Below are positions 3,785 through 61,935 of a stretch of DNA of 64,000 nucleotides, one piece after another; within the stretch, counting starts at the first letter, position 1; every line of letters begins with the position of its first letter. The notes beneath the pieces were generated by a model. The model was not told the origin of the DNA. It searched no databases and saw nothing but the letters and a program-made list of their open reading frames with translations. The stretch lies in the NCBI GenBank assembly GCA_951406725.2, contig OX597814.1:89900001-89964000 (forward strand), read 5' to 3'. The translations under genes and the position numbers were made by a program. The DNA comes from Octopus vulgaris (lineage: Eukaryota).

Positions 3785-4302
3785 ATACGATATAGTGTAT
3801 ATTTAAACACATAAGGAATTCACTTATAGGGAATTCAGCACGCTAGAAAGAACAGCTAGGTTCTGTAAACCACAAAAATAACGGATAAAATTCGACAGGA
3901 ATAAATTTGGAAATGAAAAACATTTACCATCTAGTCCCTGGACCAATTGGTTTCTAATCATCTTTTAGCGAGTCAAGGAGAACTCACAAGGTCTGATTTT
4001 CTTCAGTAAGGTCCAACCTAGGGTTATACATATCCAACACGAGACAAACAAGGCTACTTGTCTCGTGTTTATACGAACTAACTTTTCAAAAGTTCTTGAC
4101 TCGTGAGTTCTCCTTGACTCGCTAAAAGATGATCAGAAACCAATTGGTCCAGGGACTAGATGGTAAATGTTTTTCATTTCCAAATTTATTCCTGTCGAAT
4201 TTTATCCGTTATTTTTGTGGTTTACAGAACCTAGCTGTTCTTTCTAGCGTGCTGAATTCCCTATATGGAGGATTCCTTATGTGTTTAAATATATACTGTA
4301 TC

Positions 4303-5950: not shown

Positions 5951-6376
5951 ATTAAATGCAATGAATCCTTCGTTGAGAAGCTTTTAAAAACAATGAGGAC
6001 TTAATAGTGGTAAATGAAATGGTATTTATGTTGCGTTAAAACTATCAGTATTCTGCTGAGGAAATAATACTGATGTATATCGAGGAATATTGGCTGCAAA
6101 TTTTGGTACAAGTCCAGGAATTCCGGGGGAGGGTGCTAGTCGATTACATCAACTCCAATGTTCAACTGGTACTTACGTTATCTACCCCCGAATGGATGAA
6201 AGGAAAGGCAATATCATGAAACTATTGACAGAAGGCACTAATCAGAAGCCTGTTTATGAGTAAAACCCATACAAACTAGGTACCCAAAGCTATAAATGGA
6301 CTTGTGCAATATTTATTGTAACAGTATAAACAAAGACATCATTGTCTGTCTGCACTTTGCCTGGTATGCAAACGAT

Positions 6377-6773
6377 TCTTTTCTACTCTAGGCAGAAGGC
6401 CCGAAATTTTTAGGGAAGGGGCCAGTAAGGCAGATCGATCACATTGCGTAATTGGTACTTATTTAATTGACCCCGAAAGGATGAAAGGCAAAGTCGACCT
6501 CCACGGAATTTGAACTTAGAACGTAACGGCAGGCGAAGTACCTATTTCTTTACTACCCACAATGGGCTAAACACAAAGAGGACAAACAAGGACAGATAAA
6601 TGGATTAAGTCGATTATATCGACCCTAGTGCGTAACTGGTACTTATTTAATCGACCCCGAAAGGATGAAAGGCAAAGTCGACTTCAGCGGAATTTGAACT
6701 CAGAACGTAGCGGCAGACGAAATACTGCTAAGCATTTCGCCCGGCGTGCTAACGATTCTGCCAGCTCGCCGCC
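6377..6773 (-). mobile_element. tRNA-derived SINE family B, composite: head + Tx1-tailed unit + normal-tailed body
   Basis: Minus strand begins ggcggcgagctggcagaatcgttagc with a B-box-like gagttcaaattcc; the body occurs twice with a junction at 6542/6543. Confidence 0.9.
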
Positions 6774-9084
6774 TTTTGATAACTTAAAAATAATCCACAG
6801 TGGTACTGTGTATCGGAATTGGTCATATAGATAAAGCTATAGCTGGAATATACTAGTATGCCACGAGCAAAATGAAATTAAAGCGCGTGACCTTTATTCG
6901 TAGGAAATACTTTCTTCGTCTAGCAGGTCATTAGTATTGTCCCTCTTTTAAACTTTAAATTACTGATATTAACTTCTATTAACAGTAACACTAACCACAC
7001 ATTTTACTGAAAATAACCATCAAAATTTAGTCATGTTACACTATTTATTATCTTAGACAACATTTTTAATTATAAGTTGACAGCAGTTTTCAAACTTTTA
7101 ATTGCAGAGTGAATCACTCAGCCAGATAGAATTTAATCTATTTTATACATCTTAGTTCACTTTCATTTTAATAAGCTCATTAATAACTTGTATTCAGTAA
7201 AAATATGTAGTATTTAGAAAAAAAATTACGAAAATCCTTCGAAAGTCTTTGAGACACACTATCCAGAAATTTAATTATTCTATTTTTAGTTGGGCCAAAT
7301 ATCTAGGTTTTGCTGTATAAACAAATTATGTTTTATCTTCGAAATCTACCATAATGTGTTATAACAAGTGAGTAAACTACATTTCTGTAAAAATCATTCC
7401 CTGAGTTGCACAGCACACACTTAAGGACATGTTTATAGAGAGTTCCTGAAGCTAATGAAATCAAAACAATTATTTTATTCTTCCTTCAAGAATAGCAAAA
7501 TTTATTCTAGATATGATCTTACCTTAAAAGAATTCACCTTGTTTTGTGTGACTTCGTAACACCGGAACTGAGGCGCAAGAATTTAGGGTAACATTACATA
7601 TGTATAGAATATCAGGGCATCTGAAAAAAGATTTCTTTTAAAAACAAGAAGTCAATGAAAAATACGATCATACGATTCCATATATTTCTCAACGACTTTG
7701 ATAGTACAAATGACAAGAAACGGCAACAACGGGAAAATAAAACTGGGTTCCAGAGTCACTTCTTCAGAGATTTATTTCATACACTTTGTAGTTCGCGCCT
7801 CAGGGATAAAAGCAAGCAAACAAAACAAGCCTACGTAAATATTTTTGTATTGATTGTGTTTGTTTACTGTTATTAAGGAACGGAATAGAATTCATGTTGA
7901 ATTTATAAAACTTTGCTGCTTCACACGCAGTTATACACAGAAAGAAAAAAAAAACACATATACAGAGAGAAACACAAATTCACACCACAGATATACTCAT
8001 GCACAAACAATAATAATAATAATAATATAATTTATAGATAATCTTACTATAATCACTACAAGAAATAATATGGATCATTTGTCTATACACATCACTTAAA
8101 TTTCCACCAGCTTCAACTGCGAATTGGAAGATTGAAGCTGGCAAATAAAACAGGGTCAAAACAGAACTGTGATATGTTCTGAAACCTAATTACAAAACTT
8201 TCCTCTTAATATAACTTTTCCAGTTGGAATAATCTTGCAGCTGGCGCATTAATGACATTGACAGATACAATGACGTTTTCAACGTGCAAAGTATTGATCT
8301 TATAATCTTAATTTAAGACCTGTTCTCTGATATCTAAACACCACCGATACTCTTCCATATCTACTATACTACACCTACAACGATATTTCTTCAGATTTTC
8401 TCAACCGATTATAATTATCTCCAGAAGAACTGCAATTTGTAAAGTCATTCGCTTCATGAAACATTCTAATCCTTAGCTTTAATGTCAAATGTCTAGGCTT
8501 CATTAAGAATGGATTAGACTCGTACTTAACTTCTATCATAACTGTTCTTGTTTAAAATCTCAGAGCAGTCTCGTCAAATATTTTCAATTAACGTACGTTG
8601 AATTATGCTGTACTGATTGATCAGTGTTGTGTGATAAAATCTGAGAGCTAATCGCTCAATGAAGCCATACATTGGGTGGGTATGTCTATCGAAGAATTAT
8701 AACAGGTAATTAACTAAGAAATAGGACATTATCAATAATGTTCTTCGAGGTTCAACACACCTGCGAACTCTGTTTCCTAGATCTAGCTAGACAGTGTTTA
8801 AATTACATTGAAAATAGGTTAAGATACCTAAGAAATTTGGGCGGAGTTGATGATATCGTATCATTTCTGGGATAATTCATTAATTAGTCTTTAATTATTT
8901 TAAATCTGCGTGTATATATATATATATACACACAATGGGTAATAAAACGAATGGTTTACACATGGTAGCTTACGGGTAAAGAACGGTCAGTTTCAGCGTG
9001 ATCGTTAGGTTTATAACAAATGAAGGACAGAAGATGGAATATACGAGAATTTATTATTAATCACGACAATTGTTTCGACACATC

Positions 9085-17886: not shown

Positions 17887-18445
17887 CTTTCAATAGAAGC
17901 GATGTCGCCCAATACTCCATTCTCGAGATGTGAGAGGTGAGTGCAATGCAAAGAGCGTGTTCATGTAAAGAACGTAGAAGTAGTCAGCTAAATCAGTTCA
18001 GGTGGAGAAAGAATTATTTATTACGAAAATATAATCCCACGCTCCTGAAACAATAGAAGAAACGTGTCAAGTTCTCAATGACAGTTTCGATAATCTAGCG
18101 GAAGCATGTCAAAGGGTCATACCCACTTATGGAAACTCTATGGAGAATTGTATGAAGGAAAAGAAGAGAGCAGCATATCCTGCTAACCTAATAGGTTAGA
18201 AAAGATGATACTTCCTGATAATGCATTTGATGAGGCACATCCAAAAATCAAATCAATTTCCAATAAACTTCAAAGATAACATTATGTTAGATATCCTTGG
18301 AGAATTATTTTAAACTTATTTTTTAATAGAAATTTGTCTTTTTAACCTTATTTCATTTAATTTTCGAGACACTAAGGGTTTTAAAAAGGTTTTAATTCAT
18401 GTAATTTTTATTTAAAGAAATTCTGTATCACACCCAACCGTTTTA

Positions 18446-18900
18446 TTCCTTTCTATTCTAGGCACAAGGCCCGACATTTTTGGGGCGGGGCCAGTCGATA
18501 AAATTGACCTCAGTTCGCAGCTGGTACTTAATTTATCGACCCTGAAAGGATGAAAGGAAAAGTCGACCTCGGCAGAATTTGAACGTAAAGGCAGGCGCAA
18601 TACCTATTTCTTTACTACCCACAAGGGGCTAAACACAGAGAGGACAAACAAGGACAGACAAATGGATTAAGTCGATCATATCGACCCCAGTGCGTAACTG
18701 GTACTTATTTAATCGACCCCGAAAGGATGAAAGGCAAAGTCGACCTCGGCGGAATTTGAACTCAGAACGTAGCGGCAGACGAAATACCTATTTCTATACT
18801 ACCCACAAGGGGCTAAACATAGAGGGGACAAACAAGGACAGACAAACGGATTAAGTAGATTATATCGACATCAGTGCTTAACTGGTACTTGTATAATCGA
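18446..18900 (-). mobile_element. SINE family B array: two Tx1-tailed units plus one normal-tailed body
   Basis: 184-bp period; junctions aatacc|tatttc at 18604/18605 and 18788/18789. Confidence 0.9.
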
Positions 18901-19729
18901 GGTCGATAGAATAAGTGCCAGTTAAACACAAGTGCTGATGTAATCAACTCCGATCCCCTCTAAAATTCCTGACTTTATGCCAAAATTTGAGTCCATTATC
19001 ACCTGGAAATATAACAACATGTTTCCTGTCCAAACTCCAACCCTGACAGAACATTTAGTATGCCGATCAAAATGTATAGCGGCATTTTGTGGTCCTCAAA
19101 TTCCGTCGAGGCTGACTTTGCCCTTATCTTTTCGGTGTCGATAAAATAAATAGCAGTCAAGAACTCGTCTTGTGCCAAAATTTCAAAACATTATCCACTT
19201 AGTAGATTCTACTATATAAATGAGAATGTATGCGTGTCTGTATATGTGTATACCACAGAAAGGCTCCGAAATGGTCTGTCCGAGAGAAAAAACGGACTTA
19301 ATCTTCGCCATCTGCCTCCCAAAGAGATTGTTGTTTTTATTGGTAATCAAAACATTTTATTTGCCTATCTGTTTATCTGCCTCTCCCTCTCTTTTACACC
19401 TTTTCCTTCTCTATATACATTTACGTCACTCTCCCCCATTCTCTTTGTACATGCTGCTTCCTCCTCTCTCTTCATATGACAGGTAATGCAAGTCAGTCAC
19501 GCGTCTACGTGACTCTCTCTATCTGTCTATCAGCCTCTCTGTCTTTTAGGCTTTTGTCATTGAAAACTTACACCTCTCTATATATGTTTACCATTCTTTC
19601 ACTCTTTCTTGGTATATGTATAGAGCTTACGCTGAGTGTGTGGATGTTTGTATATGTCTGGTGTGTCAGTGCATGCGTGTAGGGAATTTCATTAGGCTGC
19701 CAGCGAGCTCAGAAGGTATCCGATCAGAG

Positions 19730-20109: not shown

Positions 20110-20512
20110 TAGTAGTGGCTGTGTGGTAAGTAGATTGCTTACGAACCACATGGTTCCGGGTTCAGTCCCACTGCGTGGCACCTTGGGCAAGTGTCTTCTA
20201 CTATAGCCTCGGGCCGACCAAAGCCTTGCGAGTCGATTTGGTAGACGGAAACTGAAAGAAGCCCGTCGTATATATGTACATATTTGTGTGCATGTGTGTG
20301 TATATGTTTGTGTGTCTGTGTTTGTCCCACTCACAACATCGCTTGACAACCGATGCTGGCGTGCTTACGTCCCCGTAACTTAGCGGTTCGGCAAAAGAAA
20401 CCAATAGAATAAGTACTAGGTTTGCAAGGAATAAGGGTTGATTTGCTCGACTAAAGGCGGTGCTCCAGCATGGCCACAGTCAAATGACTGAAACAACTAA
20501 AAGAGTAAAAGA
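20110..20512 (+). mobile_element. SINE family A, near full length
   Basis: A box tggctgtgtgg, B box ggttcagtcc, CORE-like ttgggcaagtgtcttct, internal TA/TG microsatellite, tail taaaagag. Confidence 0.92.
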
Positions 20513-23115: not shown

Positions 23116-24713
23116 TTAGTTGGTGTATGTATTAGTATGGCACATCATATATGATGTGATGTGTAAAGTCGTGTGGTGTAGTGTGGAAAGAGGAGAAGAG
23201 GGGGAGGAGAGGAGGGGGCGGGGGAGAAGGAAGGGGGGGAGGGGGAGAGGGGGAGAGAGAAGGGGAGTGAGGGAGCAGAGGGAAGGGGAAGAGGGAAGGA
23301 GGGAGGGAGAAAGAGGGAAGAAGGGAAGGGGAGTAGGGGTGAAAGGATGAAGGACTGAAGAGAAGTAGGGGTGGGGGGAAAAGTAGGTGAGGAGGGGGAG
23401 AGGGGGGTTAGATGAGGAGGGGGTAGAGTTGAGACCAAATGGCGTATAAGAGCGAAGAGAGAAGATTAATTCCTGTTCACGGCGCAAACGGGAATCCGGA
23501 TGGCCTCTGTGTAAGGACAAACCGAACACAGACAGGTGTTGCAAGGAGTGACCGGTGGAGCAGAAATGGCGTGAGACCGGTGTGTCGTTCGCAAGGTGGA
23601 TGTCACGAAGTTGTTCCGCGAACCGGTCAGCCAAGCGGCGTTCCGTTTGTCCGATGTACAAGGAATGGCAGAGAGAGCAAGAGACGCAATAGATAATATT
23701 GCTGGAGGTGCAGGTGAAGGAGTTGATGATGCGATAGGGTCGATGATGGGTGCTAGTGAGGAGGGTGGTGTTGGAGAGGTAAGGGCAAGTGCGGCAACGT
23801 GGGCGGGAGCAGGGGAACGAGCCGGGTTGGGAGGTAGGGTCAGGGAAGGAGCTATGGACCAAAAGGTCTCGAAGGTTGTGGGCCCGTTTGAAAGAGGGGA
23901 GGGGTCGGTTAGGGAAGAGGTGTGAAGTGGACGGGTCGGACTGGAGATGACGGAAAGCTCGAAGAATGGTGCGTTGGAGACGTAGGGTCGTGGGGTGGTA
24001 AGTGAGGGGAAAAGGGAGGCGGGAGACTACAGGGCGGGTTCGGGGAGAGAGAGCAGATACACGGTCCACGGACCGTGCTCTGGCAAGGGCGGTGTGGATA
24101 GTGGTGAGGGGGTATCCACGTAGGGTGAAGTGGTGAGCCATACGTTGAGACTGAGTCTCAAAGTCATGGTCGTCACTACAGAGCCTACGTAGACGGAGGA
24201 ATTGGGAATAGGGGATGGAAAGCTTGGTGTGTTCTGGGTGGGAGGAAGAGAAGTTGAGGTATGAGTGTGAGTCTGTGTGTTTGTAGTGAATGGAGGTGGT
24301 AAGAGTGGAGTGAAGAATGCTAACCGAAATGTCGAGGAAGGAGACAGAGGTGTTGGAGATAGTGGAAGTGAAGTGGAGGGCTGGATGGAAAGATTGGACG
24401 AAAGAGAGGAAGGAATCTAGATGTTCACGGGAGAGTGAGGTGGCACCGATAATGTCGTCAATGTAACGACCATATAGTTCAGGAGTGGGACCAGTGAAAT
24501 TAGAGAATATTTGGCCCTCAACATAGCCAACGAACAGGTTCGCATAGTTGGGGCCCATTTGCGTTCCCATGGCCACTCCCGAGACCTGATGGTAGAACTC
24601 GCCCGCGAACGAGAAGCAGTTCAGAGTAAGGACAAGTTCGGCCAGACGAATGAGTGTGGAGGTGTCAGGTTCAGGGTTGGAGCGGAGGTCAAGAAAGTGT
24701 TGAAGGGCCTGCA

Positions 24714-24714
<1 letters not shown>
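23116..24714 (-). CDS. PLE reverse transcriptase (C-terminal part) + GIY-YIG endonuclease; no native start codon
   Basis: ORF 23116..24819: [28 protein letters not shown], linker [48 protein letters not shown]; the N-terminal YIYI stretch is microsatellite read-through. Confidence 0.9.
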
Positions 24715-24796
<82 letters not shown>

Positions 24797-25419
24797 CATA
24801 TATATATGCATATATACATACGTATATGTACATACTTACCTGTAGACGTATATATATAAAGAGATAGATAGACAGATATGGATCAAAATAGCTTAACTCA
24901 AACGTTTTGGTGCTCTGAGTTTCAAGCGTGTCGCTAGTCTATGGATATAGATATACATATATATATATATATGTGTGTGTGTAAGTGTGTGTGTGTGTAT
25001 GCTTATAAAGTTTTCACCTCTGACCACACTATGTAATCTAAAGCAATATTGTATCTTACAACCACATTGTTTCCTGTGTTCATTGAGTTTCTTGTCTATT
25101 GTGCTATTTGAGAGACAATTGGCTGCTATTTCTGCCAGATCAGCTGACCAACTATAGACTTATTTGGATACATGCACTGTTGTTGCATCGCTGTAAGTTA
25201 TCTGTGATCGCACTCAATAATGGTGAAATATGTTCCAGATTTCGACTTATTCCTGACATGGTATGTAAGGACTACGTTATCCAATGCCTCTTTTCTTATT
25301 ATTTTAAGTAGGTGGCCTTAGGTTTTGATGCTGGTCTGGTACCTATTTCTAGCAAGCCGCACAACCAGGTAGCAGCTCCCATATTGACTTGCTGCTTTGT
25401 ATTCTTATTTAGGCTTGTC

Positions 25420-30578: not shown

Positions 30579-32392
30579 ACGCAGGGGCAAATTATGCAGA
30601 AAATTTTCCACCCCTTGCTAATTGCATAATCAGCAACCATACACCTAATATACCCACAACCACCACCTCCACCACCACCACCACCAACATAAATGATAAA
30701 AATGAAAATAACGCAAATACAATTAACAAAGACAACAACAACAACAAGAACAACAACAAAAATGAAATAAATATTTTACCATCAAATGGTGAAGATATTA
30801 TCATAACAGATTCAACAATACCTGGAAAAGCCACGTCCAAGGATATTTCGGATACAACAACAACACAAACACACAACGACAACAACTGCCAGAATATAAA
30901 AGTAAATTTCGCTGACAAAAGAAATTATACAGTTCACGAATGAAGAGTTGATAGAGACAAGATCACTCTTCACAACCCAAGGGCAAGATTTAGTATTGCA
31001 TACACCTCAACACATAAAGGAACAAATAGAAAACCAAACAATTATATAAAAAATATAAAAAAATGAACAGATCACAAAAACGGACATTGAAAAATGTGCA
31101 AAAAGCATAATGAAAGTAAAAGAATATATAAACTGGGGTCCCCAGTTTAATACAGTGGTGGTCCGCTTCCCTAACCAGGAAGTGGCAAAAGCTCACTCTA
31201 CCGAGTCTTTGGAAAATGATGAAATCATCATGGTACCTTACTACAAAGGCCAGAGAGTGAGTAGAATTACTATTAAAAAATGTACCCCCCCCCCCGAGAT
31301 TCCTAACAAATGGATAACAGGGGCAATCTGTTACCATTTGAAAACTATAAATATTTTAGAGACTGCCGTATACCTAAACGACAATTGGGGTGGAAAAACA
31401 ATAGTAGTGGCCATCTAGATTGAGGGGGCCTCTATCGAGAACCTACCTGATAGGATCCACTTAGAAAATGGGCAAAGCTTATATGTTGTAGCAGAAGGCA
31501 AAAAGCCTAGATGCTGCAACTGTGGCAGCTCAGAACATTTAATTGCCAAGTGCGTTCTGGCACAGAGAAAACAAGAAATAACAAATCAGAAAACAAACAA
31601 AAAACCTCTGTTGCCAACACCAACACCAACACCACACTCGATGATGGAATAATGCCAAGAAAAACAACAAACCAGCAAACAAACCCCAACAACATCACCA
31701 AGAAAAGAAACAGCACCAACACTATCACCGTTGACGTTGCAACCAATTCAACATACTGAAACAAAACCAAAAGATAGACCAACACCAGCACCAAGGACCG
31801 ACAACAAAAAAAAACCCAGAAAACAGTGACGAGAAGACAAATTCTACCCCTAACACCCCAACAACACAAACACCGCACGAAACATCAACAATTTCTACAA
31901 ATATACATATTAACGCAAATGCTTTGCCTTTACCCCCTTCTGATTTGTCGGACGACGAAAGTTCGACAGAATGGCAAATAGCCACCGGGGGTAAAAGAAA
32001 AAGATAAAAAGAACAAACAAGAAAACGCAACCAAAGCAGGGAGATACCTGAACCCCGAAAGTTCCACACACAACCAAACAAGCACCAACACCACAAAAAC
32101 TCACACAATGCTATCAGCGATTGACACCAAAGACTCCAAACTAATGGAGTACATCACAGCCCACACAAACATCTGTGAAGATGACTTCAAAACTAACAAC
32201 CATCCACGCACTACACCACCCAAACACATCAAAATACTACACATCACACAAACACAACACCACACACTCAAAGCCCTCTTTCCAAATGCGGTTGGGGGGT
32301 TCCAAAAATACCTTTCACAAAAACTCTATAAAAACCTCCTCCAAGACACATCAAAGGACGAGGAAGCCAAAACTTTCGACACAAGTAAGTAA
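30579..32392 (+). pseudogene. Tx1 ORF1 (gag-like, zinc knuckle), disrupted
   Basis: ORF pieces 30533-30943, 31110-31418 and 32108-32392; reading through the stop at 31416 gives VVAEGKKPRCCNCGSSEHLIAKC (CX2CX4HX4C at 31512-31553). Confidence 0.85.
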
Positions 32393-32442
32393 CTCTCTGT
32401 ACCTTCCTTTTTGTGTTTTAAAGCACACACCCCAATAGAATC

Positions 32443-35400
32443 ATGGTGAAGATTGGTTGTGTGAATGCGCGTGGCTTGGGGTCTCCTTGGGGGATTGGAA
32501 TGCTACCATGGACACGCATCTAGACTATGTGGGGAGAGACAAAAACAGAAGGGGATGCAAATGCCTCAGAGACCTGCTAAGACGATTCCAACTGTCTGAC
32601 AGGTACCGACTCGACCACCCAAATGCACCAACGTGGACATGGATCAACCGCAGTGGGTCGTCGAGATCGTATCTAGATAGGATACTGTGTAGGACAGTAG
32701 ACAGAGATAACTTAGGATGTTCACAATTCCACAAGTCAGCTACACGGATCACAAATTCGTGACGTGTACGCTAGACTTAGATAAGGCACATAGACAGGGT
32801 TACTGGAAACTGAACGCATCTTTCCCATCCAGACAGGTTTTCAGAGACAGAATTAACACGTTAGTAAAAATGGCTTTAACGGGAGCCATTGTCAACAACA
32901 AATGGTGGTTCGCCTTCAAGAGAGCAGTAAAAGCGGAAGCAATTAGATATAGCAAGGCACTAGCCGTAGATAGAAATAGAGTGGAGGGTGAGTTAGTTAA
33001 GAAGTTAGAAGAGGCAATAAGAAGCGACATCACATCCGACGTTTTAGCGGCGAGGTTGGCCCTTGACCAACACTTCAACGCCAAATACAAAGGGTGTGCT
33101 GTCAGGGCTAGGATGCGTGCTCTAAGGATGGAAGGTGTTGGAGCCGCGAGGGAGGCCCGGGTGGCGAAGGCGCAGCAGGGCAGCAAAGCCACCATTCGGT
33201 CTCTGGTAGATGAACAAGGGCGCGAATTGCTCGAACCCAGCAAGATGTGCGAGAAATTTCAGCGGCACTTTGCCCGACTGTACGGGACAAGTGGCGAGCG
33301 TGAACGCAGGATGGACTTCAGTGCTTACCTGCACAGCCTACCACGACTCTCGGCAAGAGAGGCAGAGTGCTGCGAAGGTGCCATCACGGCGGCGGATGTG
33401 CGGGACGCGATGGCAGAATGCTCGGGGGACAAATCGCCGGGTTTGGATGGTCTGCCCTACGAGTTTTACAATTGTATGCCAGACTTGTTTGGAGACGTCT
33501 TGGCAGCAGTATACTGCAACTGGCAGCAAAACGGGAGCATACCCGGTTTTGTGAGTCGAGGAGCCGTAACGCTGCTGAAGAAAGATCCAAACAAGGGGAA
33601 CATTATAGATAACTTTAGACCAATCACTCTGCTCAATGCAGACCTGAAAATTTTGACAAATGTGTTAGCCAAGAGGTTGGCGCTTGTCATCGAGAAACTG
33701 GTCGACAACGCACAAACGTGCGCCGTCCCGGGCCGGAGCATCCACGGCAACCTCCATCTGATGCGCTACATCATAGACAGAGTAGTTAAGGAACCTGGCA
33801 TGAGTGGGGCCCTGATCAACTTGGATCAATCGAAAGCCTTCGATAGGGTAGACCATCGATACTTGGAGGCAGTCCTGAGAGCGGCTGGTTTCGGTCCCGT
33901 CTTCCGCGGCTGGATAGCTGCCTTGTACAGAGGCATCCGTTCGGTAATTCGCGTAAATGGACATCTATCGAGACCTTTCGACATTGCACGTTCGGTCCGT
34001 CAGGGATGCCCCCTCTCGGCGCTTCTATACGTATTGACTCTTGATCCACTACTGCGGAGGCTGGCGACTCTGAGGGGCATCCCGCGAGAATTGGGATACG
34101 GGACGAGCGTGTCTGCATACGCGGACGACGTCACCGTCATAGTGTCAAGCCACGAGCACATCGAGCTGATCGGCGAGACACTGAAAGACTACGAAGCGGT
34201 GACAGGGAAAAGTCAGTGGGCTTGCGGCTCGGCACCTGGAGACGCAAGCCCATGTCGTCCACCAGTACCTCCGACGTGGGACGCTGGACGGACGGCCCGG
34301 TTGAGTTGCTCGGGGTCTGGTTCGGTCTGGTTCCTCCAAATGGAGAAGAACTGGAACGAGATAACGAGTAGGGTGGTCACTCTCGCCCGGCAATGGGCCG
34401 AGAGGAAACTGTCCTAAAAGGTCGGGCGGAGGTGGCGAACACGTACATCGCGTCCATCATCTACTACTGCCTGATCGTCGTACCTTGTCCCGACCCTACC
34501 ATCACCAAACTAGAACGCATTCTCTTCCGCTTCTTGTGGAAAGGATGCGTCCCGATGGTCAGGCGATCCATTTGCTGTCAACACCCGTTAAAAGGAGGGC
34601 TGGGCATGCCGTGGTTGATGATGCGCAGACACGCGCTGAGACTGCGACATCTCCGGCTATATGTAGACGACGGTGAACAGGTGTGGTCGCCGTTTGTGAG
34701 GCACGCGTTCCCGCAGCTCGTCTCCATGACCGAACTGCAGTCGTGGATCAAAAAGAGGCCGAGGAAGGGCGAATGGCACCGCGAGTGTTGCGTTGCTCTC
34801 AAGCAACTCTGCCGTCCCGGGTCGACCTTGAGTGACTTCAACACAACCAAAGCATTCTATAGGGGATTAGTACGACGACAATCTTGGGGCAAACCTGGGC
34901 GTCGACGAGGAATACCTGACCCGCCTGTTTGAAACGACTTTCGGGCCGGGACCTATGGACAACTTCCAGAGATCCCTGGCCTGGCGGTGCTACCGAGAAG
35001 CGCTAACCGTTCGGGATAAACTCTATAGGCATGGCTCGAGAAACACGGGGCCGACCTGCCCGAGATGCGGGCAGAGCGACGAAACCGCTCTGCACGCAAT
35101 CGTGCAGTGTCCAGCAATTTCCGACCTGTGGGCTTATGTCGAACGACTGCTGTCACGTGTGGGACGTGTCGGTTTATCAGCCGAGTCTATCGTTAATATC
35201 GTCACGCCTCCTTCCTTCAAACGGGAAGGAAGAGCTATTTTTATCATACTTGTGGCTATGGCGAAAGAATGTATCTGGTGGACGCGCCTGAAAGGATTAG
35301 AGACAAACACTTTCCTCTCTGGTCAATCTCTCATCAACTTCTTCAAGTATCACTTGAAGAGGAAAGTGAGAGTAGAGAGGCAAGTTTTGTCTAGTGAATG

Positions 35401-35446
35401 TTTTAAAAAGATGGGTGAATGTAGCAAGGATGGCACGTATGAATGA
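32443..35446 (+). pseudogene. Tx1 ORF2 (AP endonuclease, reverse transcriptase, C-terminal zinc motif), frameshifted
   Basis: MVKIGCVNARGL, LGDWNA, SYLDRI, TDH (APE); KSPGLDG, NFRPITLLN, DQSKAFDRV, RQGCPLS, YADD at 34118-34129 (RT); GGLGMP; CPRCGQSDETALHAIVQC. Confidence 0.95.
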
Positions 35447-35847
35447 CGAAGCCACCTTGACTATGATTCTATGAACCGTAAAAATTAATACAGAGAGTTG
35501 CTTATTTGCAAAAAAAAAGAAATATAACATGTGACTTCATTGACCGAGGTTACCGTGGTCTTTTCCGTAGGCTTTTCTTTCCACGGGTAAACCTCACCTG
35601 TCCCCCCCTTTACACTTCATATTGACATTTCTGTGGTAACGATCCCTATTGATCAATTTTTTTTTCTGTCCCTTTCCCCCCTTTTTTATTTTAAAATTTT
35701 ATTCTCCCCTTTTTTTGTCCTCTTTCTTTCCCTTTACGATCCCTTTTGATCGAAAACCAAACCCCCTTTTTTTACCCCCAAAAGAAAAGCTCTACCTTGT
35801 AATTTGTCCTGTCTGTGTACAGCCCTGTGTAGCTAATATAGAAACAT

Positions 35848-38645: not shown

Positions 38646-39415
38646 CCTGAGTTAAGTTCTTCATAAAAGAGTTGGATTTATGGCTCTGCCACTTAAATTG
38701 CCTCTTCCTCTGTCTATAAATAGATAAATTCTTAGTTGTCTCCACTGAACTTAATAGAATAAGCCCCCTCCCAAATGGTAAATCTAAATAACAAAGAAAA
38801 TTCAGTGATAAGAAATCTACCCATGAGTAAAGATAATTTACTACCATGTTTCTATTGATGAGATTCACCTCTCTGTCTATATACCTACCCTGTTTGTAAT
38901 GTTGGCAAATGGAATAAGTATAAAAATGAACATCGTCAATTTAATTTAAAAATTCCATATGTGGCTGAAGATTGCTCTACATTTTAAAACTGATGTAATA
39001 CTTACATTGTTTAATTAAATGAAGTAGCATGAAACGATTGTACTGCACTAACTTTGGATATCCTTGTTGCTTATTTTGATTATAATCACCCCATTTGATT
39101 TATATGGATAATACCATACCAAATTCTGGTGCCTTTAACTTAAGTACCATATTCATCTGAATTTTTGCTGAACTTATATATATTAACGTATATGTTATTA
39201 GATTGTTAGTTGAATCACTAATTAATTTATTGGTTACATATATATTTAGTAAGAAAAAGAAGGAAGGGGATTTCGATTATCCCCACGTTGTGAGTTGTAG
39301 TGCAAAAAAATAAAAAAAGAATATATTCTACTGGACATAAAAGAATTCTCAAACGTGAATACGGCTCACCATCGAAGAAAGGCACACACACGCATAATGT
39401 ATGTATATATATCTA

Positions 39416-39812
39416 CTAGCAGTATCGCCCGGCGTTGCTCGGGTTGTAAGGGAAATAACTATATAAGCATTTTTAGAGACTTATAGCCAAAAAATAGCAA
39501 AAAAATTGCATTAAAAATTGAAAAAAAAATTAAGGTAAATTTTTTTTTAAATCGTTGACACATCGTAGATATTTTTAGAGAGTTACTTCCCTTATATAAA
39601 AGCGAAAAAAATGCATTAAAATGGAAAAATATGATGGTAAATTTTTTTAAAATCGTAGACTCATCGTAGACGCGCGCTAATACCCAGAAGGGCTCGATAT
39701 GAATCACGACTATAAGATACCCGCTTTTGGTTAAACTGCACCGCAAAATGTGGGAGTAGTTAGGAATCTAAATCGTAGGAGACAGACACACAACTTCACT
39801 CTTATATAAAGA
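39416..39812 (-). mobile_element. Non-autonomous Helitron
   Basis: Minus strand A|TC...cccgagcaacgccggg hairpin...CTAG|T, no TSD; closely similar to unit 53480-53866. Confidence 0.88.
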
Positions 39813-51131: not shown

Positions 51132-51204
51132 AGCTTAGAGAAGAAGAAACCAAACGAAACCAAACGAATCGAATCGAATCGACGCGAAGGCGCTAAGTCA
51201 TACA

Positions 51205-51738
51205 ATAGTGTAATAAATAAAATATATGCATACATACAAACATATATGTACGTACCTACATCTACATGAATATATACATGCATATATAAATATATATACG
51301 TGTGTACAGGACACCACAAATAGACGTAGAACTCAACGAGAAACGAAAACGTAAAAACAGCATGGAATGGACCATTTTTTTAACAACGAAAAACAGAGTA
51401 CAAGACAACTACACAAGGAAAAATCCCCTTCATCAGCTGTCCCTAGCTCAACTCCAGCGTGTTTCGAAGGTGAGGACAGAAACACGCTGGAGTTGAACTA
51501 GGGACAGCTGATGAAGGGGATTTTTCCTTGTGTAGTTGTCTTGTACTCTGTTTTTTTCGTTGTTAAAAAAATGGTCCGTTCCATGCTGTTTTTACGTTTT
51601 CGTTTCTCGTTGAGTTCTACGTCTATTTGTGGTGTCCTGTACACATGTATATATATTTATATATGCATGTATATATACATGTAGATGTAGGTACGTACAT
51701 ATATGTTTGTATGTATGCATATATTTTATTTATTACAC

Positions 51739-51741
<3 letters not shown>
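51205..51741. repeat. Near-perfect palindrome, ~260-bp arms with 13-bp spacer
   Basis: 51205-51465 is the reverse complement of 51479-51741; (TA)n tracts lie on both sides of the element. Confidence 0.97.
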
Positions 51742-51797
<56 letters not shown>

Positions 51798-51800
<3 letters not shown>

Positions 51801-53866
51801 ATATATATAAAACTCTAGTTGTGTGAGTGTCTGTCCCCTTCGATTTAGATTCCTAACTCCTCTCACATTTTGCGGTGCAGTTTAACCAAATTCAGGTATC
51901 TTATAGTCGTGATTCATATCGAGCCCGTCTGACTATTAGCGCGCGTCAACGATGAGTCTACGATTTTAAAAATAATTTAACATCATTTTTTATTCCATTT
52001 TAATGCATAAAATGCATCGTGTGTCGATGGCGGCGGAGTTGGCGTCCACGCTCACAGCTGCACCTGTTTGCTTCTCCCCCTTCCCTCCCGCGTGAATCTG
52101 TGGGGAAGGGAGTGTAAAGAAATCAACGTCGTAATGCGTTGTGAAGGAAACCAGCGTTCTTTTAGAACAACGACTTCATGGCTTGAAGACACCAAAACAA
52201 AAATGGCTAAGAAAGCCCGAATTTATAAGGGAAGTAACTCTCTAAAAATGCTTATATAGTTATTTCCCTTACAAACCCGAGCAACGCCGGGCGATACTGC
52301 TAGTCTATATATATAAACTCTAGTTGTGTGAGTGTCTGTCCCCTTCGATTTAGATTCCTAACTCCTCCCACATTTTGCGGTGCAGTTTAACCAAATTCGG
52401 GTATCTTATAGTCGTGATTCATATCGAGCTCGTCTGACTATTAGCGCGCGTCAACGATGAGTCTACGATTTTAAAAATAATTTAACATCATTTTTTATTC
52501 CATTTTAATGCATAAAATGCATCGTATGTCGATGGCGGCGGAGTTGGCGTCCACGCTCACAGCTGCACCTGTTTGCTTCTCCCCTTCTTCCCTCCCTCGT
52601 GAAGCTGTGGGGAAGGGAGTGTAAAGAAATCAACGTCGTAATGCGTTGTGAAGGAAACCAGCGTTCTTTTAGAACAACGACTTCATGGCTTGAAGACACC
52701 AAAACAAAAATGGCTAAGAAAGCCCGAATTTATAAGGGAAGTAACTCTCTAAAAATGCTTATATAGTTATTTCCCTTACAAACCCGAGCAACGCCGGGCG
52801 ATACTGCTAGTATATATATAAAACTGTAGTTGTGTGAGTGTCTGTCCCCTTCGATTTAGATTCCTAACTACTCCCACATTTTGCGGTGCAGTTTAATCAA
52901 ATTCGGGTATCTTATAGTCGTGATTCATATCGAGCCCGTCTGCGTATCAGCGCGCGTCTACGATGAGTCTACAATTTTAAAAATAATTTAACATCATTTT
53001 TTATTCCATTTTAATGCATAAAATGCATCATGTGTCGATGGCGGCGGAGTTGGCGTCCACGCTCACAGCTGCACCTGTTTGCTTCTCCCCTTCTTCCCTC
53101 CCTCGTGAAGCTGTGGGGAAGGGAGTGTAAAGAAATCAACGTCGTAATGCGTTGTCAAGGAGACCAGCGTTCTTTTAGAACAACGACTTCATGGGTTGAA
53201 GACACCAAAACAGAAATGGTTAAGAAAGCGTCTACATGAGTCTACGATTAAAAAAAAATTTACCATCATTTTTTCCATTTTAATGCATTTTTCGCTATTA
53301 TATAAGGGAAGTAACTCTCTAAAAATGTCTACGATGAGTCAACGATTTAAAAAAAAATTACCATCAATTTTTATTCCATTTTTAATGCATTTTTTGGCTA
53401 TTTTTTTGCTATAACTCTCTAAAATGCTTATATAGTTATTTCCCTTACAAATCCGAGCAACGCCGGGCGATACTGCTAGTCTTTATATATAAAAGTAAGG
53501 TTGTGTGTCTGTCTACTCCGATTTAGATTCCTAACTACTCCCACATTTTGCGGTGCAGTTTAACCAAAACCGGGTATCTTATAGTCGTGATTCATATCTA
53601 GCCCTTCTGGGTATTAGCGCGCGTCTCCGATGAGTCTACGATTTTAAAAATAATTTACCATCATTTTTTCCATTTTAATGCATATTTTTTTAATATAAGG
53701 GAAGTAACTCTCTAAAAATGTCTACGATGAGTCAACGATTTAAAAAAAATGACCATAATTTTTTTCCATTTTTAATGCATTTTTTGCTATTTTTTGGCTA
53801 TAACTCTAAAAATGCTTTATTGTTATTTCCCTTACAAACCCGAGCAACGCCGGGCGATACTGCTAG
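51798..53866 (+). mobile_element. Head-to-tail array of four non-autonomous Helitrons
   Basis: Units 51798-52303, 52304-52810, 52811-53479, 53480-53866; each ends cccgagcaacgccggg(-like) hairpin + cgatactgCTAG; three begin with TC. Confidence 0.92.
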
Positions 53867-54222: not shown

Positions 54223-54629
54223 TAGGCGCAGCTGTGGCTGTGTGGTAAGTAGCTAGCTTACCAACCACATGGTTCCGGTTTCAGTCCTACTGCGTGGCAC
54301 CTTGGGAAAGTGTCTTCTACTATAGCCTCGGGCCGACCAAAGCCTTGTGAGTGGATTTGGTAGACGGAAACTGAAAGAAGCCCGTCGTATTTATGTATAT
54401 ATATATATGTATGTGTGTGTATATGTGTGTGTGCCTGTGTTCATCCCCCCAACATTACTTGACAACCGATACTGGTGTGTTTACTTCCCAGTAACATAGC
54501 GGTTCGGCAAAAGAGCCCGATAGAATAAGGACTAGGCTTACAAAGAATAAGTCCTGGGATCGATTTGCCCTACTAAAGGCGGTGCTCCAGTATGGCCGCA
54601 GTCAAATGGCTTAAACAAGTGAAAGAATA
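54223..54629 (+). mobile_element. SINE family A, full length
   Basis: tRNA-like head, CORE-like segment, internal microsatellite and 3' tail are all present. Confidence 0.93.
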
Positions 54630-57574: not shown

Positions 57575-57980
57575 CTGAACAAAATGTTTAGTATTTCGTC
57601 TGTTTTTCGTTCTGAGTTCAAATTCTGCCTTATATTATTTCGTGATCGTTAAATTAAATACTAGTTAAGCACTTGAGTTGATGTAATCAAATTACCCTGG
57701 TCCCGAAATTGCTGGCCTTGTACCAAAATATGGAACAGGCATTGAGCCGGCAGAATTGTTAGCATATCGGGCAAAATGCTAAGCGACATTTCGTCTGTCT
57801 TTTGTGTCTTAGCGTAATTTTGTCTGTTCTTGGTACAAATTGCATCGAAGTCGATTTGGCCTTCCATCGTCTTGGAGGGGTGTCAATAAAAATAACTAAC
57901 AATCGAGCACTGGGGTCGGTTTAATTGATTTAGCCCCTCCCCCGAAATTGCTGGCCTTGTGCCAAAATTTGAAACCAATA
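57575..57980 (+). mobile_element. SINE family B, two decayed tandem copies
   Basis: Repeated cccgaaattgctggccttgt.ccaaaat tails at ~57702 and ~57941; head gagccggcagaattgttagc at ~57744. Confidence 0.75.
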
Positions 57981-58076: not shown

Positions 58077-58079
58077 ACT

Positions 58080-58867
58080 AAGCGCTACCCGTTCGGGATA
58101 AACTCTACCGACACAGCTCGAGAAACACGGGGCCGATCTGCCCGAGATGCGGTCAGAGCGATGAAACCGTTCTGCACGCACTCGCGTAGTGTCCAACCAT
58201 CTACGACCTGTGGGCCTACGTCGAACGACTGCTGTCACGTGTGGGACGAGTCGGTTTATCAGCCAAGTCTACCGTCAATATCATAACGCCTCCTTCCTTC
58301 AAACGGGAAGGAAGAGCTATTTTCATCATAATTGTGGCTATGGCGAAAGAATGTATCTGGTGGACGCGTCTGAAAGGATTAGAGACAAACACTTTCCTCT
58401 CTGGTCAATTTCTCATCAACTTCTTCAAATATCACTTGTAAAGGAAAGTGAGAGTAGAGAGGCAATTTTTTTCTAGCGAATGCTTCATAAAAAGATGGGT
58501 ATAAATGACGAAACCACCTTGAGCATAATCTTATGAACCCGGAAAAATTTAAAACAGAGATTTACTTACTTGCAAATAAATGTGTTAACATGTAACATTA
58601 TTGACCGCGGTTACCGTGATCTTTTCCGTAGTCTTTTCTTTCCACGGATAAACCCTATCTGCTTCCCTCCTTACACTTTACATCATGACATTTCTGTGAT
58701 ACACGATCCCTATTGATCGTTTTTTTTCTTTTTCTTTTTTTTCTTTCCTTTTTACGACCTCTTTTAATCGAAAACCTATCCTACTTTTTTTTCCTCCCCA
58801 AAAAGAAAAGCTCTACTTTGTAATTTGTCCCGTCTGTGTTCAACCCTGTGTGGCTAATAAAGAAACA

Positions 58868-60428: not shown

Positions 60429-60776
60429 GGGCACCTTGGGCAAGTGTCTTCTACTATAGCCTCGGGCCGACCAAAACCTTGTGAGTGGATTTGGTAGACG
60501 GAAACTGAAAGAAGCCCGTCGTATATATATATATATATATATATATATGTGCGTGTGTGTTTGTGTGTCTGTGTTTGTCCCCCTAGCATTTCTTGACAAC
60601 CGATGCTGGTGTGTTTATGTCCCCGTCACTTAACGGTTCGGCAAAACAGACCGATAGAATAAGTACTGGGTTTACAAATAATAAGTCCCGGGATCGAGTT
60701 GTCGATTAAAGGTGGTGCTCCAGCATGGCCGCAGTCAAATGACTGAAACAAATAAAAGAGTAAAAGAGTAAAAGAA
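60429..60776 (+). mobile_element. SINE family A, 5'-truncated
   Basis: Starts at ggcaccttgggcaagtgtcttctactatagcc; tail (gtaaaaga)n. Confidence 0.92.
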
Positions 60777-60972: not shown

Positions 60973-61495
60973 CACACACACACAGAGACACAATACACGC
61001 ACATAATAATTAAAATTTTTGAGAGAAATATCATAGCAAACAGACATTCATCATTCCTTAAAATAGTTCGATTTAGCGTTAATCTTTTTATTTTGTCCGA
61101 GTATCCCCAGTTCATCTTCACGTGTTGTGCCGTGTTTTACCGCGCAGTTGGAAGTATGAGCAGCTATCCTGGAAACCATAACATGTGGCGAGATGTAATA
61201 ACTATAGTAGGAGGCTGGAGGCTGGTGGCAGGTAAGTGGTGACGGCGATAAATTGAGAGAGGGGTGGGACGAAAGGTCCATTAAAAAGATCAAATAATCT
61301 CAAATGGCCTGCTGTTAACCCATTAATATTTATGAAAGGCTTTTGAAGCACTCTGCTAAATATAATTTTACATGTATATTCATTTTTGGGGTTTTTTTTT
61401 AGAATTCGTTTTCGAATTCTATATAAATACTATAATAGCATAACCAGAATTTTTCAGCCCTTTCTTTAGATGCTATTGTTTGTAGCTCTGTAAAA

Positions 61496-61935
61496 GGCGG
61501 CGAGCTGGCAGAATTGTTAGTCCACCTGGCGAAATGCTCAGCAGTATGTCGTCAGTCGCTATGCTGTGTTCAAATTTCGCCGAGGACGTTTGTGCCTTTC
61601 ATCCTTTCGGAGTCGATAAAATAAGTACCAGTTGAACACTAGGGTAGATGTAATCGACTCATCCCCCAAACTGCCCTCGTGGCAAAAATTTTCAATAATT
61701 ATTTATAACGCTGTAAAAGACGGCGAGCTGACAGAATCGTTAGCAAACCGGGCAAAATACTTAGCAATATTTCGTTCATCTTCGCATTCTGAGTTCAAAT
61801 GTTCAAATGCTGACGGAGTCGACTTTGCCCTTCATCATTTCGGGGACCATAAAATAAGTACCAGTTGAACATTTGGGTCGATGTAATCGACATAACCCTT
61901 CTGAAACTGCTGGTCACGTGCCAAAGTTTGAGATG
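61496..61935 (+). mobile_element. SINE family B, two full copies in tandem (normal tail)
   Basis: Heads ggcggcgagctggcagaattgttag (~61496) and gacggcgagctgacagaatcgttagc (~61719). Confidence 0.88.

What the first reader, a model, noticed from the sequence alone, without database searches (positions are those of the whole stretch)
18446..18900. SINE with a Tx1-like 3' tail joined at one exact site inside its own family's tRNA head (candidate self-targeting SINE)
Seen: family B SINEs have two tails. The variant tail (minus strand ccttgtttgtcctctctgtgtttagccccttgtgggtagtaaagaaata) aligns with the Tx1 3' ends in this window (ccttgtaatttgtcctgtctgtgtacagccctgtgtagctaatatagaaaca at ~35795-35846; ctttgtaatttgtcccgtctgtgttcaaccctgtgtggctaataaagaaaca at ~58816-58867). 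All three such tails (6543, 18605, 18789) are followed by ggta(t/c)tt/gcg, the position just after gcttagc in the SINE head, giving 184-bp units. Normal-tailed copies (57575, 61496) lack this. Established: SINEs borrow LINE 3' ends to be mobilised, and Tx1 endonucleases can be site-specific. Inference: a Tx1 relative cuts the SINE-B head, and a chimeric SINE with its tail inserts into its own family and builds arrays.
Basis: partly seen in the sequence, partly recalled or inferred. Interest (0 to 1): 0.82.

Follow-up and report, generated by a model that had tools for sequence, protein, structure and literature searches.

The report
Octopus SINE landing in its kin
Young copies of an abundant octopus short jumping gene sit joined, always at the same base, to much older copies of their own family and carry a tail resembling a site-specific LINE, so this is likely a SINE that inserts into its own family's promoter and stacks up there, although the helper LINE that would cut that site was not found.

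Summary
All 3 variant tails in the window end at the same base of a following headless SINE, and the tail matches the last ~50 nt of two Tx1-clade LINEs (71-73%, 0 of 300 shuffles reach the score). The DNA is octopus-type. (1) The tailed 184-bp units at the two loci differ by 8/184, their right-hand partners by 31/160 (p 1e-5), so the units are younger than their partners and this is not one fixed dimer. (2) In public contig sets the junction is a high-copy feature in 3 of 4 runs, and those same runs show rare joints where a full head follows 7 or 15 nt of the target, as a target-site duplication would. The site lies between the A and B boxes, at the edge of a hairpin loop. Against: both Tx1 copies in the window sit in (TATC)n, no LINE at the SINE site was found, the junction is rare in the fourth run, and no genome was available. 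Best reading (0.5): a Tx1-mobilised SINE that targets its own family's head. This is a new variant of known target-specific SINEs (SINEU).

The parts
6727..6775 (-). SINE head, locus 6; A-box-like motif at 6763-6753. As young as the unit behind it
   Evidence: 0 of 49 positions differ from the majority letter in run X1 among the rows shown
6714..6743 (-). 13-bp hairpin with 4-nt loop (6730-6727) between the A and B boxes; the junction site corresponds to the 3' edge of the loop (6727|6726)
   Evidence: RNA fold of 6700-6777, z -2.61; DNA fold
6543..6726 (-). 184-bp tailed unit, locus 6 (B-box-like motif 6699-6690, body, Tx1-like tail about 6591-6543)
6375..6542 (-). Older headless right-hand SINE with its own tail type (putative host 3' part), starts exactly at the junction site
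   Evidence: 18 of 168 positions differ from the majority letter in X1
18789..18900 (-). Left tailed unit of locus 18, 5' part lost, more diverged
   Evidence: 11/112 from the middle unit, 14/112 from the locus 6 unit
18605..18788 (-). Middle 184-bp tailed unit of locus 18, the youngest piece
   Evidence: 8/184 from the locus 6 unit; lacks the markers of both neighbours
18436..18604 (-). Older headless right-hand SINE of locus 18, same tail type as at locus 6, 7-bp deletion
   Evidence: 31/160 substitutions and 2 gaps against the locus 6 right part
18897..18990 (+). 3' half of a normal-tailed SINE in the opposite orientation, joined to locus 18 at a shared TCGA
30579..35846 (+). Full-length-looking, broken Tx1-clade LINE whose last ~50 nt resemble the SINE tail; (TATC)n on both sides
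58078..58867 (+). 5'-truncated copy of the same LINE, (TATC)n on both sides

Best explanation
A young subfamily of this octopus SINE carries a Tx1-type 3' tail and sits joined at one exact base to older copies of its own family, likely because a Tx1-clade LINE's enzymes nick that site and copy the SINE RNA into it. Shown: the tail, the exact junction, the age gap, a free-standing form of the right-hand SINE type. Inferred: the cut falls just before GGTATT, between the A and B boxes at the edge of a hairpin loop. Because the SINE RNA contains the same head sequence as its target, the 5' end would usually be resolved by pairing of the new cDNA with the target (with the host head, or with the short overhang that matches the cDNA's own internal GGTATTT). 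That would give seamless results: a young head replacing the host's (locus 6) or a headless 184-bp unit (locus 18). A minority would be resolved end to end and show a full head behind a 7-15-nt duplication. Each insertion would leave a working A+B promoter in front and recreate the site, so units can stack. The units have no T4 terminator, so transcripts would run on into the target sequence, which could help aim the reaction.
For: 3 of 3 tails end at the same base. Tailed units differ 8/184 between loci, right-hand parts 31/160 (Fisher p 1e-5; non-CpG 7/162 vs 23/137, p 4e-4; same 108-bp body only 4/108 vs 19/101, p 6e-4). At locus 6, head plus unit differ from the majority letter at 9/233, the right part at 18/168 (p 0.008; p 0.04 and 0.14 at stricter majority cut-offs). 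Old changes begin 4-9 nt behind the junction at both loci, so the age boundary is sharp. The locus 18 middle unit lacks the markers of both neighbours. Summed contig depth 5 nt past the tail end is 0.55, 0.62 and 0.83 of that inside the tail (place 6563) in runs X1, X4, X7, and 2.1, 2.7 and 10.7 times that of the right-hand tail. Joint 6776>6539 (tail, GGTATTT, then a full head; the 3 letters between are printed for X4) stands in 23, 19, 4 and 0 contigs of X1, X4, X7, X10; joint 6775>6712 (15 nt of target, 2 letters, then a full head) in 3, 4, 2 and 0. The right-hand type occurs with its own full head in an O. bimaculoides peptide (P0002). Tx1 elements are often target-specific, and a Tx1-linked SINE with tandem insertions at one site is described (PMC4494074, passages). 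Pairing of cDNA with upstream target is described for R2 (PMC6895275, passages).
Against: 2 of 2 Tx1 copies in the window lie in (TATC)n; the tail is only 71-73% like them, so the partner is a different, unseen family. None of the 24 of 2,408 loose ends shown is a LINE 3' UTR upstream of the tail. In run X10 the start of the tail is common (0.29 of head depth) but the junction is rare (0.008), so not every tailed copy is at this site, though a diverged tail there may simply fail to lay. The matching full-head joint at a native head (about 6776>6720) is not among the 15 of 2,567 joints shown. The two TSD-like joints have about 1,000-2,000 depth against 11 million at the junction and could come from a few amplified loci. 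Both right-hand parts share a marker at 6533 carried by only 5-19% of the depth there, which hints at a common older composite. Translated diverged copies suggest other join positions (P0008, P0011/P0022, P0013, P0019). The age result rests on two loci.
Confidence: 0.5

Rival explanations
1. The junction arose once or a few times; dimeric and trimeric master copies then spread as whole elements through read-through transcripts, and later gene conversion from abundant young copies refreshed the tailed units.
For: No T4 run inside the locus 6 composite, so one transcript can span it. Both right-hand parts share a tail type and the 6533 marker. The junction is abundant in runs X1, X4, X7 and rare in X10, as a lineage-specific master would give. 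Window Tx1 copies do not use this site.
Against: A 4.5-fold divergence gap between arms (p 1e-5) with the boundary at the junction at both loci; the locus 18 middle unit is bounded by old changes within 8 nt on the left and 6 nt on the right, too short for ordinary conversion. The junction outnumbers the right-hand tail 2-11 times. No target-site duplication is visible around the locus 6 composite.
Confidence: 0.22
2. The joins form during reverse transcription: SINE RNA cut or stalled at the hairpin loop is copied first, and the enzyme then jumps to the 3' end of a tailed SINE RNA, so the whole chimera lands at a new place.
For: The site is at the edge of a single-stranded loop in a stable hairpin. 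LINE reverse transcriptases jump between templates without homology (PMC6895275, passage). Translated copies suggest a second join near the A-box hairpin.
Against: It needs old, decayed copies as first templates at both loci; it does not predict a full head behind 7-15 nt of target; no duplication or simple-repeat end flanks the locus 6 composite.
Confidence: 0.13
3. Insertion at the site is real but not set by a sequence-specific LINE nuclease: the near-palindrome forms a hairpin or cruciform in DNA, breaks, and is patched with SINE cDNA held there by homology.
For: DNA hairpin of 13 bp, -7.7 kcal/mol. Explains the age gap and needs no unseen LINE family.
Against: The locus 18 middle unit sits at a tail|GGTA junction, where the 5' arm of the hairpin is absent. 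Only Tx1-tailed copies, 3 of 3, show the junction, while the normal-tailed copies aligned do not end there.
Confidence: 0.12

Closest known systems
SINEU / Tx1-Mar / Mariner-N4_AMi of crocodilians (Kojima 2015, PMC4494074; abstract and passages seen)
   Same: A SINE linked to Tx1-clade LINEs that prefers one site in another interspersed repeat and forms tandem insertions by sequential events.
   Different: There the head is U1/U2 snRNA, the target is a DNA transposon, the duplication between tandem copies is visible, and the partner LINEs share the target. Here the head has Pol III A/B boxes, the target is the SINE's own family, most joins are seamless, and the partner is not found.
Tx1L in Tx1D, Keno in U2 genes, Kibi/Koshi in microsatellites (as summarised in PMC4494074)
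   Same: Tx1-clade target specificity; the window's LINE fits the microsatellite-targeting pattern, (TATC)n.
   Different: These are autonomous LINEs; none is said there to target a SINE head.
R2 5'-end formation by pairing with upstream target sequence (PMC6895275, passages seen)
   Same: An RNA that carries target sequence can give a seamless 5' junction.
   Different: R2 has a restriction-like nuclease and targets 28S rDNA; use here is by analogy only.
SINE-derived satellites of squamates (PMC10702118) and tandem SINEs of bivalves (PMC11481361); passages seen
   Same: Tandem units made of a SINE segment; head-to-tail SINE arrays in molluscs.
   Different: Those are put down mainly to unequal recombination; here the middle unit is not a copy of its neighbours and arrays seen are 1-2 units.
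Octopus OK/OR1/OR2 SINEs (Ohshima and Okada 1994; cited in PMC4824008 and PMC4758252, paper itself not held)
   Same: Very abundant tRNA-type SINEs of octopus; this family may be one of them.
   Different: No sequence could be compared, so whether the composite is already described there is open. By recall only, the body looks more like the Deu/Nin domain than CORE.

Membership tests
tRNA-type SINE (SINE2) | Internal Pol III A and B boxes | tested here: met
   A-like 6763-6753, B-like 6699-6690 with one extra base against the recalled consensus
tRNA-type SINE (SINE2) | Head traceable to a tRNA | tested here: inconclusive
   ARAGORN 0 genes; Rfam on 6300-6900 gave one chance hit, E 2.9
tRNA-type SINE (SINE2) | Short, non-coding, high copy, interspersed | tested here: met
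   14 hits of the 108-bp body in 64 kb; stops in all six frames; 85,000-471,000 contigs laid per run
tRNA-type SINE (SINE2) | 3' end shared with a LINE | tested here: met
tRNA-type SINE (SINE2) | Transcribed by Pol III | not testable with these tools
   only contig data; run X7 is RNA by guess only
Tx1-mobilised target-specific SINE (works like SINEU) | More than 20% of copies flanked by one target (criterion in PMC4494074) | tested here: inconclusive
   Depth proxy only: place 6538 over place 6597 is 0.35, 0.31, 0.35 in X1, X4, X7 and 0.03 in X10; 3 of 3 in the window; depth is not a copy count
Tx1-mobilised target-specific SINE (works like SINEU) | Partner LINE found at the same target | tested here: not met
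   2 of 2 window copies in (TATC)n; the rest of the genome could not be searched
Tx1-mobilised target-specific SINE (works like SINEU) | Target-site duplication at full-length insertions | tested here: inconclusive
   none in the window; two low-depth joints of that shape in 3 of 4 runs
SINEU itself | U1 or U2 snRNA-derived head | tested here: not met
   no Rfam hit to a snRNA; A/B boxes instead
Fixed dimeric SINE | Both arms equally diverged between copies | tested here: not met
   8/184 vs 31/160, p 1e-5
Fixed dimeric SINE | Fixed unit number and one right arm per junction | tested here: not met
   1 and at least 2 tailed units at the two loci; junction depth 2-11 times right-tail depth in 3 runs
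Fixed dimeric SINE | Shared diagnostic changes in the right arm | tested here: inconclusive
   both right parts share tail type and the 6533 marker
SINE-derived satellite | Neighbouring units more alike than distant ones | tested here: inconclusive
   11/112 to the neighbour vs 5/112 to the other locus, opposite direction but p 0.19
Tx1 clade (window LINE) | APE + RT + zf-RVT ORF2, nearest named relatives Tx1-type | tested here: met
   Pfam RVT_1 E 1.7e-27, zf-RVT E 8e-08, Exo_endo_phos weak, E 0.0046, below cut-off; 2 of 120 listed hits are named transposon TX1 149 kDa protein, most are unnamed; no tree built
Octopus OK/OR1/OR2 | Sequence match to the published consensus | not testable with these tools
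   paper not held; no sequence in the supplements searched (one file each of two papers could not be searched)

The most novel reading that the evidence does not exclude
A self-targeting SINE: a Tx1-tailed subfamily that uses a site-specific LINE nuclease to insert into the promoter of its own family, takes over or rebuilds that promoter, recreates the target with every insertion and so grows short arrays at a large share of the family's loci in some octopus species.
Probability: 0.45. Interest if true: 0.78.

Novelty: new variant of a known kind. Interest (0 to 1): 0.62.

Why it matters
SINEs make up about 11.6% of the O. vulgaris genome (PMC13282606, first third of the text read). If a major subfamily spreads by landing in its own relatives, part of that expansion hits harmless sites, refreshes old promoters, and distorts age estimates and family counts that treat composites as single elements. 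It would also be a clear case of a non-autonomous element whose target is its own sequence, which links target-specific retrotransposition to the birth of dimeric SINEs and SINE-derived tandem repeats. With several octopus assemblies public, it is testable by computation alone.

Tried and rejected
No whole genome is held, so no genome-wide census. Tail pattern scans: viral contigs 0, genome contigs 1 chance match in an archaeal gene, metagenome contigs 0 with 23 nt and 120 with 15 nt; none of the 121 loci aligns to the SINE beyond 30 nt. The repeat finder was swamped by microsatellites. A conserved stem-loop in the tail is not supported by energy: z between -1.28 and +1.37 for the 5 tails folded. 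A 9-nt motif common to the two suspected join sites is unremarkable: 13 matches in the window. Peptide searches with a translated unit gave 1, 3 and 18 hits, 2 of the 18 unrelated repeats (P0007, P0014, dropped); they are too diverged to count junctions. Runs X17-X24 (small or no share) were not used; 4 of 24 listed runs were laid. Local unequal crossing-over as the origin of the locus 18 middle unit was rejected because it lacks both neighbours' markers. My first guess of a CORE-type body was dropped; nothing tested supports it. Paper searches found no description of a SINE targeting its own head or of this composite; most subscription papers, Repbase, Dfam and SINEBase were not searchable. 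Earlier scan notes held nothing on this sequence.

Full report
Setting. The window is microsatellite-rich animal DNA. No genome is held for it. Translated pieces of this SINE occur in proteins named Octopus bimaculoides (3 of 3 hits), and 15 of 24 listed sequencing runs hold half or more of its sampled words, so the family is an octopus-type repeat. The 108-bp body has 14 hits in the window.

The observation. Locus 6 (minus strand, 6775-6375) is a head, a 184-bp unit that ends in the variant tail, and a headless SINE with another tail. Locus 18 (18900-18436) is a cut tailed unit, a full 184-bp tailed unit and a headless SINE with the same other tail. All 3 variant tails end at the same base and are followed by the sequence that follows gcttagc in the head. 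A tail pattern finds only these 3 and the 2 LINE ends, with 0 expected. The tail matches the last ~50 nt of both LINE copies, 0 of 300 shuffles reaching the score in each of 6 tests, at 37-38 of 52 columns, and not further upstream. The LINE at 30579-35846 has RT and zf-RVT domains and a weak endonuclease hit; its named relatives include two Tx1 149-kDa proteins among 120 listed hits. Both LINE copies have (TATC)n on both sides: they look target-specific, but for a microsatellite.

The site. It lies between an A-like box (6763-6753) and a B-like box (6699-6690), at the 3' edge of the 4-nt loop of a 13-bp hairpin. The locus 6 composite has no run of four T, so a Pol III transcript would run through the tail into the next unit (inference).

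Age test. The tailed units of the two loci differ at 8/184 sites, the right-hand parts at 31/160 plus 2 gaps (Fisher p 1e-5; non-CpG p 4e-4; same 108-bp body p 6e-4). Against the majority letters of run X1, locus 6 differs at 0/49 in the head, 9/184 in the unit and 18/168 in the right part (p 0.008 for head plus unit against right part; 0.04 and 0.14 with 60% and 70% cut-offs). This uses the 40 of 244 difference rows that one search printed, those best supported. So at locus 6 a young, full-length tailed SINE stands in front of an old 3' part whose own head is gone. At locus 18 the youngest piece is in the middle: 5/112 from the locus 6 unit, 11/112 from its left neighbour (p 0.19), and without the markers of either neighbour. 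Old changes start 4-9 nt behind the junction at both loci. One fixed dimer of a single age does not fit. This rests on two loci.

Other data sets (contigs of 4 runs at 80% likeness; summed depth is not a copy count, so only ratios within a run are used, computed). Depth at place 6538, 5 nt past the tail end, is 0.55, 0.62, 0.83 and 0.27 of depth at 6563 inside the tail for X1, X4, X7, X10, and 0.19, 0.17, 0.49 and 0.008 of head depth. It is 2.1, 2.7, 10.7 and 0.05 times the depth of the right-hand tail. At place 6533, 81-95% of depth carries the letter of the tailed-unit type, so most junctions lead into another tailed-type unit, not into the right-hand type seen in the window. In X10 the right-hand tail is common (0.16 of head) while the junction is rare, and peptide P0002 shows that type with its own full head: the putative host exists on its own. 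A more diverged tail in X10 may be under-laid, which would understate its junctions.

Joints. Of 2,567 joints only 15 are printed, and some were not counted. Two have the shape of the 5' end of a full-length insertion with a target-site duplication: tail, GGTATTT, then a full head (23, 19, 4, 0 contigs; the three bridging letters are printed for X4), and head to 15 nt past the site, two letters, then a full head (3, 4, 2, 0). Both are absent from the run in which the junction is rare. None of the 24 of 2,408 loose ends printed shows a LINE 3' UTR in front of the tail.

Older copies. Peptides from unnamed, diverged contigs suggest tails joined near the A-box hairpin (P0008, P0011/P0022) or 4 nt further on (P0013, perhaps P0019). 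This is read from translation only and is weak, but it suggests tail-to-head joins arose more than once.

Mechanism. Most likely (0.5) a Tx1-clade relative of the window's LINE nicks just before GGTATT and copies the tailed SINE RNA there. The cDNA matches the target upstream and also contains the overhang sequence internally, so pairing would give seamless 5' ends, as described for R2 RNA that carries upstream target sequence (PMC6895275, passages). Each event would keep an A+B promoter in front and recreate the site. The nick, the enzyme and the pairing are inferred. Rivals: multimeric masters plus gene conversion (0.22), template jumping from loop-cut RNA (0.13), hairpin-driven breaks patched by SINE cDNA (0.12).

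Known systems. Kojima 2015 (PMC4494074, passages) describes SINEU families that share a target in Mariner-N4 with Tx1-Mar LINEs and form tandem insertions. This element works like that but is not a SINEU, and its target is its own family. SINE-derived satellites (PMC10702118) and bivalve tandem SINEs (PMC11481361) are put down mainly to recombination. Octopus repeat surveys (PMC13282606, first part and supplement search: 80 L1-Tx1 families, 13 recently active; PMC8967140, passages) say nothing on this structure in what I saw. Ohshima and Okada 1994 was not held, so the composite may already be one of their families. Ten paper searches found no self-targeting SINE. Two earlier scan notes describe Tx1-like LINEs at one SINE site in other genomes; they are unchecked leads.

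Verdict. Real, high-copy and not a plain dimer; self-targeting is the best reading but lacks its LINE. New variant of a known kind, interest 0.62.

Noticed in passing
30579-35846 and 58078-58867 (+): Both copies of the Tx1-clade LINE have (TATC)n on both sides: a likely (TATC)n-targeting family, in the manner of Kibi/Koshi.
   Followed up: partly
61494-61935 and 57575-57980 (+): Normal-tailed copies of the same SINE stand in head-to-tail pairs; the 61.5-kb pair has a similar ~10-bp word before, between and after the copies, like sequential insertion at one site. One search also shows right-hand-type tails followed by a full head (82 contigs in X1).
   Followed up: partly
18897-18990 (+): The 5' end of locus 18 is fused at a TCGA to an inverted normal-tailed SINE half; both heads are gone, as after a deletion between inverted copies.
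   Followed up: partly
23116-24882 (-): 588-codon open frame that reads like a Penelope-type reverse transcriptase with a C-terminal nuclease (recalled likeness; no Pfam hit), next to a (TA)n run.
   Followed up: no
51810-53229, related to 39404-39808: About 506-bp tandem repeat, 97% alike, with an inverted relative 12 kb upstream.
   Followed up: no
20115-20496, 54234-54618, 60430-60751: A second SINE-like family of about 385 bp with further partial copies.
   Followed up: no
3825-4265 and 51200-51746: Near-perfect inverted repeats of 166 and 199 bp with short spacers, MITE-like.
   Followed up: no
P0003, P0004: Two O. bimaculoides gene models (an aminopeptidase-like and a kelch-like protein) contain an antisense piece of this SINE in frame: exonisation or annotation error.
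   Followed up: no
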